Virus record (IMG/VR): IMGVR_UViG_3300042139_000023 | Source: a virus | Lineage: Duplodnaviria; Caudoviricetes | Length of the DNA: 64,000 nucleotides | Direction: 5' to 3' (one strand) | Part shown: positions 30,969-35,845 of the stretch, piece by piece | Numbering within the stretch: the stretch's first letter is position 1 | Layout: each line of letters begins with the position of its first letter | Program-made: the position numbers and the translations under genes | The notes under the pieces: model-generated | Databases searched by the model: none | What the model saw: only the letters and a program-made list of their open reading frames with translations | What the model was told of the DNA's origin: nothing

Positions 30969-31052
30969 GCCCACGTTGTGTAGCGGTCTAGCACATCGCC
31001 CCACTGGTAATTCCAGCGGGCGGAGGCGCCGGTTCAAATCCGGTCGTGGGCT
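30969..31052 (+). ncRNA. tRNA-like RNA (Glu/Asp-like body) with 18-nt hairpin-containing anticodon loop
   Basis: acceptor GCCCACG/CGTGGGC; D arm GTGT/GCAC; stem TCGCC/GGCGG; T arm GCCGG-TTCAAAT-CCGGT; loop contains CTGG/CCAG hairpin. Confidence 0.8.
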
Positions 31053-31136
31053 CTCCGGTTGGAGTGGAAGATGAATCGGACGATTCCGTGTAGAACTCCT
31101 GAAAGCGGAATCTGGGCTGGACTATTGGGTCTGGCG

Positions 31137-31254
31137 GTGCATGTGCCTGAGCGGCCTAAAGGTGCCTGCTGAAGCTCTCCCAGGAGTGGGGGCAGGCGAC
31201 CTGACGGAACTGGGATTTCCGGAGGGTCCACGGGTTCGAATCCCGTCGTGCACA
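31137..31254 (+). ncRNA. class-II tRNA-like RNA with 24-nt anticodon loop and oversized variable arm
   Basis: acceptor GTGCATG/CGTGCAC+A; D region CCTGAGCGGCCTAAAGG; stem GCCTG/CAGGC; variable arm GACC..CGGAA/TTCCG..GGTC; T arm ACGGG-TTCGAAT-CCCGT. Confidence 0.8.
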
Positions 31255-31601: not shown

Positions 31602-32351
31602 GTGACGTACACCATCGAGAAGATCCGCGAGATCGCCCCGGGCCTGGAGAAGCCCTTCCAGAAGGCGAGCTTCGCGGCGAACCAGCATGGCCTGGACGGC
31701 GAGCGGGCGGCCGTCTACCTCGTGCTCGACCGCTCCGGGTCGATGGACTGGCCGGGGCGCGGCTACTACAGCGGCGGCGCCGTCCAGTACTTCGCCGAGC
31801 GCATCCTGGGCATGGCTCCGCTCTTCGAGGACGACGGCCGGGTGCCGGTCGTGTTCTTCGACCACGAGCTGAAGGGCATGGACGAGCTGTCCCTGGAGGA
31901 CTACCAGGGCAAGATCGCCAAGGCGCACTCCAAGCTCGGCCACATGGGCGGTACGGACTACGCCGTCGCCATGGACGCCGTGGTGCAGCACTACCAGTCC
32001 ACCGGCAAGTCGGTTCCCGCCCTGGTCATCTTCCAGACCGACGGCTCGCCCAGGGACAAGAAGGCCGCCGCCCGGCGCATCTGCCAGTACGCGAACCTGC
32101 CGATCTTCTGGCAGTTCGTCGGCTTCGGCGAGGACCGCGAGTACGACTACGACGACGAGGAGGGCCTGGGCTTCCTCCAGCGCCTCGACGACATCCCGGT
32201 CCCGCAGTACCGGCCCATCGACAACTCGGACTTCTTCGCCGTCGGCCAGGACCCGACCGCGATGCGTGACGCCGAGCTGTACCGGCGCCTGATGAACGAG
32301 TTCCCGGGCTGGCTGGCCAAGGCCCGCCAGATGGGCATCGTCCGCGTCTGA
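31602..32351 (+). CDS. vWA-domain protein (TerF C-terminal vWA-like)
   Basis: VYLVLDRSGSM, GGTDYAVAM, VIFQTDG, LPIFWQFVGFG, FLQRLDD, DNSDFF. Confidence 0.85.
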   Translation: MTYTIEKIREIAPGLEKPFQKASFAANQHGLDGERAAVYLVLDRSGSMDWPGRGYYSGGAVQYFAERILGMAPLFEDDGRVPVVFFDHELKGMDELSLEDYQGKIAKAHSKLGHMGGTDYAVAMDAVVQHYQSTGKSVPALVIFQTDGSPRDKKAAARRICQYANLPIFWQFVGFGEDREYDYDDEEGLGFLQRLDDIPVPQYRPIDNSDFFAVGQDPTAMRDAELYRRLMNEFPGWLAKARQMGIVRV

Positions 32352-32619: not shown

Positions 32620-33108
32620 ATGTCGATGGCAGTTCTGTTCTACGGCTACAGCCTGGGCGTTCCCGACGACGGCGACTGGGCCATCAAGAACACGGACGAG
32701 TTCGAGCCGGACTGGCTCACCGAGTACGAGGCGGCCCTGGAGAAGGATGACGACGGCGAGGGCTACGAGTTCTACATGCGCCGCGCCCTCCTGCTGGCCT
32801 CCGGCGTCCCCGACGACCTGATCACCAGGGGCAACGCCGAGGCCACGCTGAAGGAACAGGGCCTGGAGGTCATCACCTTCGGGCACTCCAACACGCAGTT
32901 CTACGGTCTGGCACTCGCGGGCTCCGTGTACGAGGCGGACGACTGGTCGCCGAAGTGCATTGACCCGAACTTCGAGTGGAACCCGAACATCCGCATCCCG
33001 GGCGTCGACTTCCCCGACGACGGCTACCTGCACAACGGCCTGCGCGCCCTGTCGATGGAGCCCGTCCAGGAGCGGGCCTCCTGGATCATCGCCCCTCGGG
33101 AGTACTAA
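32620..33108 (+). CDS. hypothetical acidic protein
   Basis: AGGAG RBS; coding bias. Confidence 0.75.
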   Translation: MSMAVLFYGYSLGVPDDGDWAIKNTDEFEPDWLTEYEAALEKDDDGEGYEFYMRRALLLASGVPDDLITRGNAEATLKEQGLEVITFGHSNTQFYGLALAGSVYEADDWSPKCIDPNFEWNPNIRIPGVDFPDDGYLHNGLRALSMEPVQERASWIIAPREY

Positions 33109-33113
33109 AAGAC

Positions 33114-33143
33114 TTGCGATCCCCTCGCAGGATCCCGTAATGT
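33114..33143 (+). promoter_or_regulatory. sigma70-type promoter for the Y-RNA-like array
   Basis: TTGCGA-N18-TAATGT; expected +1 falls at about 33150-33151, the first base of RNA unit 1. Confidence 0.75.
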
Positions 33144-33150
33144 TTTATCT

Positions 33151-33228
33151 GCACCCCGGAGCGTTCGTGCGAACGGTTACTTCATCCTGCGAAGAGAACA
33201 CCGGGCGCCATCTTGTTGGCCGGGGCGC
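33151..33228 (+). ncRNA. Y-RNA-like unit 1 (short, no full tRNA domain)
   Basis: terminal stem GCACCCCGG/CCGGGGCGC; shared motifs CCGGAGCG, AACGGTTACTTC, ACCGGG, GTTGGCCGG. Confidence 0.65.
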
Positions 33229-33230
33229 GT

Positions 33231-33394
33231 AACAGAAGATCCAGAAGGGTTACCGGAGCGTTTTGAGAAACGGTTACTTCTTCTGGAAAAAGAAACTGAG
33301 GGCGGGTTCGAATCCCGTCGTTGCCGACGCTTGGCATAACTGGCAAACACCGGGTCTCGCCTAGTTGGCCGGTGGCTCCTCTGGATCTTCTGTT
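33231..33394 (+). ncRNA. Y-RNA-like unit 2 with permuted tRNA-like domain
   Basis: 15-bp outer stem AACAGAAGATCCAGA/TCTGGATCTTCTGTT; same four motifs; anticodon-like arm TTCTT-CTGGAAA-AAGAA, then T arm GCGGG-TTCGAAT-CCCGT, then D-loop-like TAACTGGCAAAC. Confidence 0.7.
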
Positions 33395-33399
33395 TCTCG

Positions 33400-33580
33400 G
33401 TGTGTGGGTGAGGTGCCCGGAGCGTCTTGGCAACGGTTACTTCACAGTGGAACCAAATGTTTCAGGTTCGAGTCCTGATCCGCGAGCTTGCTCGTGGATA
33501 GCTCAATTGGCAGAGCGTTGGTCGAGGAAGGTTCGAAAGAACCACCGGGGCCTATCTGTTGGCCGGGCACCCCACACATA
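33400..33580 (+). ncRNA. Y-RNA-like unit 3 (YrlA-type circularly permuted tRNA domain)
   Basis: outer stems GTGTGTGG/CCACACAT and GGTGCCCGG/CCGGGCACC; ACCAA-ATGTT-[TCAGG TTCGAGT CCTGA]-[TCCGCGAGC TT GCTCGTGGA]-TA-[GCTC AATTGGCA GAGC]-G-TTGGT. Confidence 0.8.
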
Positions 33581-33592
33581 CATCGAGACGCG

Positions 33593-33625
33593 CCCCCTGC
33601 TCCCATCCCGGGACAGGGGGTTTTT
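33593..33625 (+). terminator. intrinsic terminator between RNA array and TROVE gene
   Basis: CCCCCTG-C-TCCC/GGGA-CAGGGGG followed by TTTTT. Confidence 0.8.
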
Positions 33626-33651
33626 GCGTTTCAAGGAAAGGGAGAAGGGTC

Positions 33652-35343
33652 ATGGCAACGTTCAACAAGCCGGGCGCGAAGGCGCGCGTCACGTCCCAGG
33701 TGAAGACGACCGGCACGACCAAGACGTTCGAAGGCGCGAGCGGTTTCACGCGCAGCCCGCTGTCGGACCTCTACCTGCTCTCGGTGTCCAACCTCGTCGG
33801 CAAGGACGCGTTCTACGAGCGCGCCAGCGACCGCAACGAGCGCTACGTGGACCTCCTGCACGGCACCGCCCTGCTGGAGCAGGAGCACGTCACGGCCATG
33901 CTGCCGTGGCTGCGCACCGACGGCTACATGCGCACCACGTCGCTCCTCGCGGCGGCCGAGGTCGCCAAGACGCTCTGCGACGAGCACCGGTACAAGGGCG
34001 TCGAGGACATGGTCGACGGGGTGCTCCAGCGTGCCGACGAGCCGGGCGAGTTCATCGCCTACTGGTTCTCGATCGCGGGCAAGGCGTGGCCGAAGCGCTA
34101 CCTGCCGGTCAAGAAGGGCCTGAAGCGGGCCGTCGCACGCCTGTACACCGAGTACTCGTACAGCAAGTACGACTCGCCGCGCCGGGCCTACCGGTTCGCC
34201 GACGTGATCGACATCGTCCACCCGGCGCCGACCGCCCAGTGGCAGTCGGACCTGTTCCGGCTGATCCTCGACCGGCGCCACGGGCACAGCGGCGCGATCA
34301 CGCCGACCCTGTCGATGACGCGCAACCAGCGCGAGTGGCGCCAGGCGGCTGCGGGTGTCCCGCGCAAGGCGTCGGCCGAGTACATCTACGGGTCGGGCCT
34401 GATCGCCCCGCAGGTGCTCAAGGACGCGGGCCTCACGTGGGAGGACGTGCTGTCGGAGCTGGGCGGCAAGGTCGACAAGAAGCTGCTGTGGGAGGCGATG
34501 ATCCCGACCATGGCGCCGGGCGCGCTGATCAAGAACCTGCGCAACTTCGACGAGGCCGGTGTCTCCGACGCCTCGGCCGACGCGGTGGCGAAGGTGCTCT
34601 CGGACAGCGAGCGCGTGCGGAAGGCCCGGCTCTTCCCGTACCGCTTCCTGTCGGCGTACCGCGCCCTGTCGTCGCTGCGCTGGGGCCACACCCTGGAGCG
34701 CGGCCTGGCGGGTTCGCTGGAGCTGGTTCCGACCCTGCGGGGGAAGACCCTGATCCTCGTGGACCGCAGCCCGTCCATGTTCCCGGGCATGTGGGGTTCC
34801 ACCCCGCACAAGGGGGACATCTCGCTGGCCGACCAGGCGGCGCTCTTCGGGGCGGCGCTGGCCGTGAAGGCGCAGGACGCCAAGCTCGTCGAGTTCGGTG
34901 GCGACCAGGCGCTCGGCGGCTGGAACAGCCGGGGTGGCGGCGCCGGTTCGCGCACGGTCAACGTGCCGCGCGGGGCGAGCGTCCTGAAGATCGTCGAGAG
35001 CTTCGGCCCGTCGATCAACGGGACCGACATCCCGCGCGCCGTGAAGGACAACTTCACGAGCGAGTTCAACCGCGTCGTGATCGTCACGGACGAGCAGTCG
35101 CGGCCGGGCTGGCTCCCGTCGAACATGGGCGGGCGCACCTACGGCATGCCGGAGACGCGGATCGACGACCTGATCCCGAAGACCGTTCCGGTCTACCTGT
35201 GGAACATGGCGGGCTACGCGGGCTCCATCCTGGAGACCGGTGGCACCAACCGTCACTGCTTCGGTGGCCTCTCGGACGCGAGCTTCGGCCTGATCCAGCT
35301 TCTGGAGCAGGGCAAGAACGCGCCGTGGCCGTGGATGAAGTGA
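33652..35343 (+). CDS. rsr: Ro60/TROVE-domain RNA-binding protein with C-terminal vWA domain
   Basis: N-terminal T.TFEG..GF...P..DLYLL..SNLVGKDAFYE; YMRT..., RADEP, YSKYD, ALIKNLRNF, RLFPYRFLSAY, LILVDRSPSM (MIDAS), VIVTDEQ, LWNMAGY; ATG at 33652 after AAGGGAGAAGG. Confidence 0.9.
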   Translation: MATFNKPGAKARVTSQVKTTGTTKTFEGASGFTRSPLSDLYLLSVSNLVGKDAFYERASDRNERYVDLLHGTALLEQEHVTAMLPWLRTDGYMRTTSLLAAAEVAKTLCDEHRYKGVEDMVDGVLQRADEPGEFIAYWFSIAGKAWPKRYLPVKKGLKRAVARLYTEYSYSKYDSPRRAYRFADVIDIVHPAPTAQWQSDLFRLILDRRHGHSGAITPTLSMTRNQREWRQAAAGVPRKASAEYIYGSGLIAPQVLKDAGLTWEDVLSELGGKVDKKLLWEAMIPTMAPGALIKNLRNFDEAGVSDASADAVAKVLSDSERVRKARLFPYRFLSAYRALSSLRWGHTLERGLAGSLELVPTLRGKTLILVDRSPSMFPGMWGSTPHKGDISLADQAALFGAALAVKAQDAKLVEFGGDQALGGWNSRGGGAGSRTVNVPRGASVLKIVESFGPSINGTDIPRAVKDNFTSEFNRVVIVTDEQSRPGWLPSNMGGRTYGMPETRIDDLIPKTVPVYLWNMAGYAGSILETGGTNRHCFGGLSDASFGLIQLLEQGKNAPWPWMK

Positions 35344-35446: not shown

Positions 35447-35845
35447 ATGGCAAATTCATTCGAGACCGGCGGGGAAGTCCTGACGGTCGGCAGCAAGGTC
35501 GTCGTGTTCGACGGCAACAGCCAGCGCGAGCTGGCCATCACCAGCATCGGAACCAAGCGGGTCTTCATCGAGTCGGCGTACGGCTTCAGGCCGGTCCCCT
35601 TCAGCAAGGAGGACCGCACGTCCCAGCAGGGGGCCTACCACCAGTACTTCAAGACGCTGACCGAAGTGGCCCTGGAGCAGGAGCGGGCGGTCGCGAAGTC
35701 CCGCCTGCGCGACCTGGGGATCGAGGCCAGGATTTCCGGCCACGGCAAGGACGGCCTGGACCCCTACTCCGTGGACACGCTGCGCGAGATCGCCGGGATC
35801 CTGGAGGCTGCGAAGCTCAAGTTCGAGCAATCCCAACAAGGTTGA
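35447..35845 (+). CDS. hypothetical protein
   Basis: AGGAG RBS; 132 aa. Confidence 0.75.
   Translation: MANSFETGGEVLTVGSKVVVFDGNSQRELAITSIGTKRVFIESAYGFRPVPFSKEDRTSQQGAYHQYFKTLTEVALEQERAVAKSRLRDLGIEARISGHGKDGLDPYSVDTLREIAGILEAAKLKFEQSQQG

What the first reader, a model, noticed from the sequence alone, without database searches (positions are those of the whole stretch)
33114..33580. Tandem array of three Y-RNA-like elements, two with circularly permuted tRNA domains, upstream of Ro60/TROVE
Seen: three units (33151-33228, 33231-33394, 33400-33580) each close on a long terminal stem and share four motifs in order: CCGGAGCG, AACGGTTACTTC, ACCGGG, GTTGGCCGG. They carry different internal cargo. 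Unit 3 has a near-perfect permuted tRNA: 3' anticodon-stem strand, T arm, acceptor stem closed as a hairpin, D arm, 5' anticodon-stem strand. Unit 2 is permuted at a different point and keeps an intact anticodon arm (TTCTT-CUGGAAA-AAGAA, GGA = Ser). Unit 1 has only a small hairpin. Known: bacterial Ro60 genes neighbour Y RNAs, and YrlA-type RNAs mimic tRNA with T arm 5' of D arm; some phages carry them. Inference: a modular scaffold-plus-cargo Y-RNA family, with a retained anticodon and a core motif that does not match the classic GGUCCGA/UUGACC Ro-binding helix, may be undescribed.
Basis: partly seen in the sequence, partly recalled or inferred. Interest (0 to 1): 0.92.

Follow-up and report, generated by a model that had tools for sequence, protein, structure and literature searches.

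The report
Phage Y-RNA trio beside Ro60 gene
A Streptomyces phage carries three unannotated small-RNA genes in a row just before its Ro60 gene; they are ordinary members of the Y-RNA family that nearly all actinobacterial Ro60 genes have, not a new kind of RNA.

Summary
Three tandem units (33151-33228, 33231-33394, 33400-33579) share four ordered motifs and each closes on a terminal stem. They lie between a conserved promoter-like block and an intrinsic terminator, just upstream of a TROVE/Ro60 gene.

The claim of novelty does not hold. The same scaffold lies upstream of Ro60, on the same strand, in at least 77 of 80 actinobacterial Ro60 loci, with 1-4 units per locus. Three-unit arrays are common. 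It also occurs in many phage contigs.

This is the actinobacterial form of the YrlA/YrlB Y RNAs described by Chen et al. 2014. Rfam's YrlA model scores the whole actinobacterial group below its threshold.

- Unit 3 is a classic YrlA tRNA mimic.
- Unit 2 has an anticodon-arm-like hairpin and a T arm but a decayed D arm.
- Unit 1 carries only the hairpin.

Compensatory changes support the helices. The window's lineage has replaced the usual CGAA Ro-binding motif with CGUU or CGUC. GenBank relatives mis-annotate these RNAs as tRNA-Pro and tRNA-Cys.

Ro60 binding and function are inferred, not shown. This scan has noted Ro60-like genes with "handle" RNA arrays before on other DNA.

Verdict: new members of a known kind, of moderate to low interest.

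The parts
33114..33143 (+). Promoter-like block: TTGCGA, 18-nt spacer, TAATGT. A start about 7 nt downstream would coincide with the 5' end of unit 1.
   Evidence: Almost invariant across five phages, including distant Satis. Unique in the window. Fails the strict sigma-70 consensus scan. Its role as a promoter is inferred.
33151..33228 (+). Unit 1: short Y RNA (YrlB-like). P1 33151-33159/33220-33228; AGCG 33160-33163; P2a GCG/CGC 33169-33171/33206-33208; P2b CGGU/ACCG 33174-33177/33200-33203; anticodon-arm-like hairpin CUUC-AUCCUGC-GAAG 33180-33194; GUUGG 33215-33219.
   Evidence: Model R1 gives 46.6 bits, E 8e-7.
33231..33394 (+). Unit 2: Y RNA with a partial tRNA mimic. P1 about 26 bp 33231-33256/33369-33394; AGCG 33257-33260; P2a GAGA/UCUC 33265-33268/33355-33358; P2b 33271-33274/33349-33352; closed 5-bp/7-nt-loop hairpin 33278-33294; T arm 33302-33318; helix UUGCC/GGCAA 33321-33325/33342-33346 enclosing a D-loop remnant; no D stem.
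   Evidence: Fold z -5.5. RNAalifold on 7 phages: 15 of 53 pairs carry compensatory changes. Coordinates.
33400..33579 (+). Unit 3: YrlA-type Y RNA. P1 33400-33420/33563-33579; AGCG 33421-33424; P2a GGC/GCC 33429-33431/33550-33552; P2b 33434-33437/33544-33547; extra GNRA hairpin 33530-33543.
   Evidence: Fold z -3.3. RNAalifold on 7 phages: 15 of 57 pairs compensatory. Aligns with 32 other actinobacterial or phage YrlA-type units, sharing P1, P2a, P2b, T and D.
33452..33522 (+). tRNA-like module of unit 3: anticodon-stem strands ACCAA 33452-33456 / UUGGU 33518-33522; variable loop AUGUU; T arm 33462-33478; 8-bp acceptor-like hairpin closed by CUUG 33479-33498; U8-A9; D arm 33501-33516.
   Evidence: Rfam YrlA hit at 33454-33524: 33.6 bits, E 1.9e-5, model positions 23-89, below the gathering score of 69. 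The anticodon-stem pair A-U changes to G-C in relatives.
33593..33625 (+). Intrinsic terminator (G+C-rich hairpin plus a T run) that ends the RNA array before the Ro60 ribosome-binding site.
   Evidence: Conserved in all five phages. A contig from run X16, whose RNA label is only a guess, stops at 33624.
33652..35343 (+). Ro60 orthologue (TROVE plus vWA), the presumed protein partner of the three RNAs.
   Evidence: Pfam TROVE 1.3e-14. PDB 9KOP/9L5Y, Thermus phage phiLo Ro60, 2e-19. Annotated as 'Ro-like RNA binding protein' in Frankenweenie, 92% identical.

Best explanation
The intergenic region encodes three Y RNAs of the actinobacterial YrlA/YrlB type. They are probably transcribed as one precursor from the conserved block at 33114-33143 to the terminator at 33593-33625, and then cut into RNAs of about 78, 164 and 180 nt.

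Each RNA has the same Ro60-binding half: a terminal stem P1, then an asymmetric internal loop with 5' strand AGCGU[U/C] and 3' strand ..GUUGG, then helix P2a/P2b. Each has a different outer half: a full tRNA mimic (unit 3), an anticodon-arm-like hairpin plus T arm (unit 2), or the hairpin alone (unit 1).

By analogy with Rsr-Y RNA-PNPase complexes and with Thermus phage phiLo Ro60-Yrl, the phage Ro60 would bind the shared half. The variable half would then tether or gate Ro60 towards host RNA enzymes (PNPase or tRNA-binding proteins) during infection.

Shown here: the anatomy, homology to the family, covariation and linkage to Ro60. Inferred: Ro60 binding, processing, the effector and the biological role.
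For: - Linkage: the array lies 73 nt upstream of a TROVE/Ro60 ORF on the same strand.
- Homology: the same scaffold lies upstream of Ro60 in IMG/VR phage contigs and in 80 actinobacterial loci. Model R1 gives 141 hits at E<=0.01, all on the Ro strand, all upstream, 1-4 per locus. No copy exists elsewhere in the window.
- Structure: RNAalifold finds compensatory changes in 7 of 11 pairs (27 short units), 15 of 25 (33 YrlA-type units including unit 3), 15 of 53 (unit 2) and 15 of 57 (unit 3) in the phage clade. P2a also covaries among the three units of this window: GCG/CGC, GAGA/UCUC, GGC/GCC.
- Rfam YrlA is the only family with a meaningful match. It aligns full length to the Satis counterpart of unit 3 at 43 bits.
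- Literature: Y RNAs lie within 4 kb of Ro60 on the same strand in 254 bacteria and 22 phages. M. smegmatis YrlA and YrlB come from one precursor (PMC4201824). Phage phiLo Ro60 binds two upstream Yrls and host PNPase (PMC12135203).
- Weak hint of expression: short contigs cover only parts of the array. X15 and X17 are RNA libraries from separate studies. X15 covers 33198-33434 at 100% identity and bridges the unit boundaries. X17 covers 33384-33596. X16, whose RNA label is only a guess, covers 33436-33624.
Against: - No direct evidence of discrete transcripts or of Ro60 binding.
- The RNA-library contigs may be DNA carry-over, and the runs were selected using this very stretch.
- One contig from a relative (X19, 33016-33195) runs across the putative promoter, so the start site is unproven.
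- The promoter-like block fails a sigma-70 consensus scan.
- The usual CGAA motif, shown to matter for phiLo Ro60 binding, is absent from all three units (AGCGUU/AGCGUC).
- The Rfam YrlA score (33.6 bits) is far below the gathering score (69).
- Unit 1's fold energy is no better than that of shuffles.
- R1 did not report unit 3 in the window search, and it aligned unit 2 only partially.
Confidence: 0.85

Rival explanations
1. An undescribed modular scaffold-plus-cargo RNA family, distinct from known Y RNAs.
For: Nothing reaches an Rfam gathering score here. The CGAA/GGUCCGA word is absent. GenBank relatives do not annotate these RNAs as Y RNAs.
Against: The scaffold is continuous with the consensus upstream of nearly all actinobacterial Ro60 genes. 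Units there overlap Rfam YrlA matches. Its elements correspond to those listed by Chen et al. 2014. Rfam's failure reflects a high gathering score that misses the actinobacterial group: bacterial host loci also score only 38-55 bits.
Confidence: 0.04
2. Genuine, if unusual, tRNA genes, as annotated in relatives (tRNA-Pro in Frankenweenie, tRNA-Cys in JustBecause).
For: ARAGORN calls tRNA-Pro(tgg) at 33395-33487. GenBank records carry those tRNA features. T arms and anticodon-like loops are present.
Against: The Rfam tRNA model has no match at E<=10; the best related hit is tRNA-Sec at 17 bits, E 1.6. The T arm precedes the D arm. The acceptor-like stem is a closed hairpin, so there is no free CCA end. 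The called 'tRNAs' span half a unit and ignore the covarying P1 and P2 helices.
Confidence: 0.02
3. Mainly a cis-acting leader: the structured array plus terminator sets or autoregulates read-through into Ro60, rather than yielding trans-acting RNAs.
For: The terminator lies 27 nt before the Ro60 start, and the consensus scan found no separate promoter for Ro60.
Against: In JustBecause, Kela and L127 an RNA ligase gene sits between the array with its terminator and Ro60. In bacteria the units are discrete and of defined sizes, and M. smegmatis Rsr binds them (PMC4201824). The two roles do not exclude each other.
Confidence: 0.06
4. tRNA decoys or sensors: the anticodon-loop-like hairpins and tRNA mimics soak up or report host anticodon nucleases or tRNA-modifying enzymes, with or without Ro60.
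For: Among family hairpins with a 7-nt loop, U occupies loop position 2 in 34 of 37 and a purine occupies position 6 in 32 of 37. The triplet varies among close relatives. A subclade has an Rnl-type RNA ligase between array and Ro60. The region is rich in tRNA genes.
Against: No nuclease or enzyme partner is identified. The same hairpins occur in bacterial chromosomes, where a phage counter-defence role does not apply. The literature reads the hairpin as a variable arm.
Confidence: 0.1

Closest known systems
Actinobacterial YrlA and YrlB (M. smegmatis, Streptosporangium, Gordonia, mycobacteriophage ET08; Chen et al. 2014, PMC4201824)
   Same: They lie upstream of Ro60 on the same strand, with several RNAs in tandem from one precursor. 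They share a terminal stem with a conserved 5' motif, the YUAY word (UUAC), a stem-loop before the T arm, and T arm - closed acceptor stem - D arm in YrlA. YrlB has only a possible T arm, like unit 2. I found the same scaffold in at least 77 of 80 actinobacterial loci.
   Different: Here the 5' loop strand is AGCGU[U/C] instead of UGCG[A/C]AG. The 3' strand is GUUGG instead of GAUC. P1 is unusually long in unit 2, at about 26 bp. Unit 3 has an 8-bp acceptor-like stem and an extra GNRA hairpin. I could not see the published M. smegmatis sequences, because the figures are not held.
Salmonella Typhimurium YrlA (Rfam RF02553; crystal structure 6CU1, Wang et al. 2018)
   Same: A tRNA-like L-shape module (T, AS, D and an open anticodon stem) sits on a Ro-binding stem. 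Unit 3 matches model positions 23-89.
   Different: The score is 33.6 bits against a gathering score of 69. The Rfam model does not model the outer P1/internal-loop module of the actinobacterial form, and it misaligns the UUAC region.
Thermus phage phiLo Ro60 with Yrl1 and Yrl2 (PMC12135203; PDB 9KOP, 9L5Y)
   Same: A phage-encoded Ro60 with tandem Y-like RNAs directly upstream, each a stem - internal loop - stem. The protein is related at 2e-19.
   Different: The phiLo Yrls carry the CGAA motif needed for binding and are not described as tRNA-like. Here there are three RNAs, two of them tRNA-like, and no CGAA.
Metazoan Y RNAs (GGUCCGA / UUGAC bulged helix)
   Same: A long stem made from the 5' and 3' ends carries the Ro60 site, and the outer part is variable. 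The actinobacterial consensus CCGGUGCGAAGG differs by one base from hY1 UGGUCCGAAGG over the core (hY1 sequence from memory, not tool-checked).
   Different: The window's own motif is further diverged. There is no polymerase III context or La site, and the cargo is tRNA-like.

Membership tests
YrlA-type bacterial/phage Y RNA (Chen et al. 2014) | Encoded within 4 kb of a Ro60 (TROVE) orthologue on the same strand | tested here: met
   The array ends 73 nt before the TROVE ORF, on the + strand.
YrlA-type bacterial/phage Y RNA (Chen et al. 2014) | tRNA-like domain in the order T arm, closed acceptor-like stem-loop, D arm, with conserved T and D loops | tested here: met
   Met for unit 3. Not met for unit 2, which has a T arm only and a decayed D arm, or for unit 1. 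Those two resemble YrlB.
YrlA-type bacterial/phage Y RNA (Chen et al. 2014) | 5' motif GNCGAAN0-1G (the CGAA core) in the Ro-binding stem | tested here: not met
   The units read AGCGUU, AGCGUU and AGCGUC. Relatives read UGCGAAG or UGCGCAG. This is a lineage-specific divergence at a homologous position.
YrlA-type bacterial/phage Y RNA (Chen et al. 2014) | Conserved YUAY word that begins the stem-loop before the T arm | tested here: met
   UUAC is present in all three units and is near-invariant in the family.
YrlA-type bacterial/phage Y RNA (Chen et al. 2014) | Bound by Ro60/Rsr in vivo | not testable with these tools
   Needs RIP or EMSA.
Rfam RF02553 (YrlA) | Score at or above the gathering threshold of 69 bits | tested here: not met
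   33.6 bits. Bacterial host loci with clear YrlA also score only 38-55 bits, so the threshold excludes the whole actinobacterial group.
Actinobacterial Ro60-linked scaffold (model R1, built here) | P1 terminal stem, [U/A]GCG loop strand, P2 CGGU/ACCG and UUACUUC, with covariation | tested here: met
   Unit 1 scores 46.6 bits, E 8e-7. Unit 2 scores 21.5 bits, E 0.05, with a partial alignment. R1 did not report unit 3, but unit 3 aligns with the family in A4 and shares P1, P2a and P2b.
tRNA | Cloverleaf with paired free 5' and 3' acceptor ends, and the D arm 5' of the T arm | tested here: not met
   No Rfam tRNA match. The arm order is reversed and the acceptor is closed. The ARAGORN call is a false positive.

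The most novel reading that the evidence does not exclude
The hairpin that directly follows UUAC in most units of this family, including units 1 and 2 here, may be a true anticodon-arm mimic rather than a 'variable arm'. It has a 5-bp stem and a 7-nt loop with a U33-like and an R37-like base, and is followed by a 5-nt variable loop and the T arm.

The family would then hold two architectures. 'Type A' is a tRNA opened at the D/anticodon junction with an intact anticodon arm. 'Type B' is opened in the anticodon loop, like unit 3. The minimal Y RNAs would be anticodon-arm-only.

In phages this arm, with its fast-changing triplet, could engage host anticodon nucleases or anticodon-loop enzymes.
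Probability: 0.2. Interest if true: 0.6.

Novelty: new member of a known kind. Interest (0 to 1): 0.35.

Why it matters
The value is mostly practical. These RNAs are unannotated, or mis-annotated as tRNA-Pro and tRNA-Cys, in deposited Streptomyces phage genomes. Rfam's YrlA threshold also misses the entire actinobacterial and actinophage branch of the family.

The locus gives a compact and tractable system: isolated phages, a culturable host, and three graded cargo types on one handle. It could be used to ask what phage Ro60/Y RNA particles do during infection. It could also show how Ro60 recognition tolerates loss of the CGAA word.

It does not reveal a new kind of RNA.

Tried and rejected
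- A helix between the GGUUA of motif 2 and motif 4 (UGGCC / UAACC / UGAUC) looked covarying across three variants. It fails in other family members (GUUC, GAAC, AUUC) and competes with the well-supported P1 and P2. Rejected.
- A local hairpin between the CG of motif 1 and the CG of motif 2 forms in this clade but is not conserved in the family. It competes with P2a/P2b, which covary. Treated as an alternative fold only.
- I tried to give the internal loop a regular bulged-helix pairing like the metazoan one. No single register fits the window, Satis and the consensus. Left unresolved.
- The IMG/VR pattern scan was unspecific. Most of the 119 loci were chance hits, and only those near a Ro60 gene were used.
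- No whole genome is held for this window, so copies outside the 64 kb could not be sought.
- The sigma-70 scan found no consensus promoter.
- RNA-library contigs leave the flanking genes uncovered. This is not evidence of absence, and the contigs do not prove transcription.
- Supplementary tables of Chen 2014 and the 2020 Annual Review are not held, so I could not check whether any Streptomyces phage was already listed.
- The JustBecause RNA ligase has no homologue in this window.

Full report
**What the window is.** It is 66% G+C. The region matches Streptomyces phages: Frankenweenie at 95.6% identity, JustBecause and Kela at about 84%, and the Satis group only over the first 127 nt. ORF 33652-35343 is a TROVE/Ro60 protein: Pfam TROVE 1.3e-14 and PDB Thermus phage phiLo Ro60 2e-19. 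Relatives annotate it as 'Ro-like RNA binding protein'.

**The observation.** The 543-nt spacer 33109-33651 holds three units. Each carries, in order, CCGGAGCG, AACGGTTACTTC, ACCGGG and GTTGGCCGG.
- The exact word CGGTTACTTC occurs three times in 64 kb, all here.
- Each unit closes on a terminal stem.
- The array is preceded by a block of about 40 nt that is almost invariant in five phages (TTGCGA-18 nt-TAATGT).
- It is followed by a hairpin plus T-run terminator.

**Known-family scans.**
- At gathering thresholds Rfam finds only a tRNA-Ile elsewhere in the window.
- At relaxed thresholds the only meaningful hit is YrlA on unit 3: 33454-33524, 33.6 bits against a gathering score of 69.
- ARAGORN calls a 93-nt 'tRNA-Pro' across the 5' half of unit 3. 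GenBank records repeat this kind of call: tRNA-Pro in Frankenweenie, and tRNA-Cys on unit 2 of JustBecause.
- These are false tRNAs. The T arm lies 5' of the D arm, the acceptor-like stem is closed, and the tRNA model does not match.

**Relatives.** A pattern scan of IMG/VR, filtered for a nearby Ro60 gene, gave phage contigs with 1-4 units of the same design. A profile of eight phage Ro60 proteins retrieved 80 actinobacterial Ro60 loci, including Streptomyces, Kitasatospora, Micromonospora, Nonomuraea, Nocardia and Rhodococcus.
- A simple regular expression found units in 43 of the 80 loci.
- A covariance model built from 27 short units (R1) found 141 matches at E<=0.01. All are on the Ro60 strand and all upstream of it, with 1-4 per locus and three-unit arrays common.
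- Only three loci lacked a hit.
- R1 finds nothing else in this window.

**Consensus anatomy.** Running from the outside in:
- P1, a terminal stem ending CCGG/UCGG.
- An asymmetric internal loop, with 5' strand UGCG[A/C]AG and 3' strand ..YGAUC.
- P2a, 3-4 covarying base pairs.
- A small mismatch, often AA opposite GG.
- P2b, CGGU/ACCG.
- UUAC.
- A hairpin beginning UUC.
- Optional tRNA-like parts.

RNAalifold finds compensatory changes in 7 of 11 pairs for short units and 15 of 25 for long units. Within the phage clade, units 2 and 3 each have 15 pairs with compensatory changes. P2a also differs compensatorily among the three units of this window (GCG/CGC, GAGA/UCUC, GGC/GCC).

**Relation to the literature.** Chen et al. 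2014 (PMC4201824) describe the following:
- YrlA next to Ro60 in 254 bacteria and 22 phages.
- A 5' GNCGAAN0-1G motif.
- A conserved YUAY word that begins a 'V' stem-loop before the T arm.
- T, AS and D elements.
- In M. smegmatis, YrlA plus a YrlB with a possible T arm, both upstream of rsr and cut from one precursor.

Wang et al. [quoted passage not shown] The phiLo paper shows a phage Ro60 binding two upstream Yrls through a CGAA-bearing internal loop, and host PNPase.

The array here is therefore a member of a described kind. Rfam under-detects the whole branch: clear bacterial YrlA units score only 38-55 bits. The Rfam model also does not cover P1 and the internal loop.

**What is particular here.**
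1. The lineage of the window, Frankenweenie, JustBecause and Kela reads AGCGU[U/C] and GUUGG where the family reads UGCG[A/C]AG and GAUC. Satis is intermediate, with UGCGA[A/C] and GUUAA. The CGAA word is therefore lost.
2. The long units fall into two layouts.
   - In 'type B' the strand after the D arm pairs 5/5 with the strand before the variable loop, and this covaries. Unit 3 is type B: UUGGU/ACCAA, becoming UCGGU/ACCGA in relatives.
   - In 'type A' a closed hairpin UUCNN - 7 nt - NNGRR follows UUAC directly, then about 5 nt, then the T arm. Its inner pairs covary, while the post-D strand does not.
3. Unit 2 is type-A-like. Its hairpin is UUCUU-CUGGAAA-AAGAA, which in Satis reads UUCAC-CUCUGGA-GUGAG, a compensatory change. 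It has lost the D stem. Satis unit 2 still has a short acceptor-like hairpin, UA and a D arm, whereas here a helix UUGCC/GGCAA has taken over the D-loop remnant. That helix is CUGCC/GGCAG in Frankenweenie and CGCC/GGCG in JustBecause.
4. Unit 1 and the other short units carry only the hairpin.

Among family hairpins with 7-nt loops, loop position 2 is U in 34 of 37 and position 6 is a purine in 32 of 37. The loop is therefore anticodon-loop-like, but the triplet is not conserved. In unit 2 it is GGA here and GCA in JustBecause; in unit 1 it is CCU, CAU or CUG. The literature calls this hairpin a variable arm. The secondary structure is the same under either name, and the three-dimensional role is open.

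**Expression.** Contigs from public runs cover parts of the array. X15 and X17 are RNA libraries from separate studies. X15 covers 33198-33434 at 100% identity and bridges units 1 to 3. X17 covers 33384-33596. X16, whose RNA label is only a guess, covers 33436-33624 and ends in the terminator. This is a weak hint. DNA carry-over and selection of the runs by this very stretch cannot be excluded. One contig from a relative (X19) crosses the putative promoter.

**Context.**
- A subclade (JustBecause, Kela, L127) has an Rnl-type RNA ligase (PF09414) between the array and Ro60. It is absent from this window.
- A ProQ C-terminal-like protein follows Ro60.
- A vWA-TerF-like gene and odd tRNA-like genes lie upstream.

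**Earlier notes of this scan.** They report Ro60-like genes with arrays of 'handle' RNAs on many other genomes, mostly for divergent Ro60-like proteins. The present case is the canonical TROVE Ro60 with the canonical actinobacterial scaffold.

**Verdict.** These are new, unannotated members of a known kind, with a diverged Ro-site motif and a useful graded series of cargo types. Binding to Ro60, processing and function are inferred.

Noticed in passing
Frankenweenie OQ921725 (L001:6298-6388); JustBecause MH744418 (L002:1644-1714): Deposited phage genomes annotate halves of these Y RNAs as tRNA-Pro(tgg) and tRNA-Cys. ARAGORN makes the same call in the window at 33395-33487. These are likely systematic false tRNA calls in Ro60-carrying actinophages.
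   Followed up: partly
L002:2038-2790, L004:2038-2790, L127:1729-2478: In the JustBecause/Kela/L127 subclade an ATP-dependent RNA ligase (Pfam RNA_ligase PF09414, 9e-18) sits between the Y-RNA array and Ro60. This echoes the bacterial link between rsr and RNA repair genes. No homologue exists in this window.
   Followed up: partly
window 35447-35845 (+): The ORF right after Ro60 matches the Phage_ProQ_C_like domain (1.7e-16). It may be a second RNA-binding protein in the same gene neighbourhood.
   Followed up: no
window 33114-33150: A block of about 40 nt before unit 1 is almost invariant, even in distant Satis. It contains an inverted repeat TGCGA-N5-TCGCA and a direct repeat GATCCC. It may be a promoter plus operator, but it fails the sigma-70 consensus.
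   Followed up: partly
window 30969-31053 (+) and about 31137-31254 (+): ARAGORN calls an 85-nt tRNA-Val(cac) that Rfam's tRNA model does not report at gathering score, and which Frankenweenie annotates as tRNA-OTHER. Earlier first-reader notes describe it and a neighbour as tRNA-shaped RNAs with altered anticodon arms.
   Followed up: no
window 31602-32351 (+): A vWA-TerF-like protein (PF10138, 5e-55) is encoded between the tRNA genes and the Y-RNA array.
   Followed up: no
L129-L208 (80 actinobacterial Ro60 loci): Rfam YrlA scores clear actinobacterial YrlA units at only 38-55 bits against a gathering score of 69. This whole branch is therefore invisible to standard Rfam annotation. L146 also has a run of about 10 tRNA genes just upstream of its Y RNAs.
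   Followed up: partly
window Ro60 compared with Satis Ro60 (L003) and Streptomyces Ro60 (L129): The window's Ro60 is closer to chromosomal Streptomyces Ro60 (about 51% identity) than to the Ro60 of the syntenic phage Satis (35.5%). The three-unit RNA arrays of the two phages are nevertheless homologous. This suggests gene replacement or fast co-divergence of the protein and the RNA motif.
   Followed up: no
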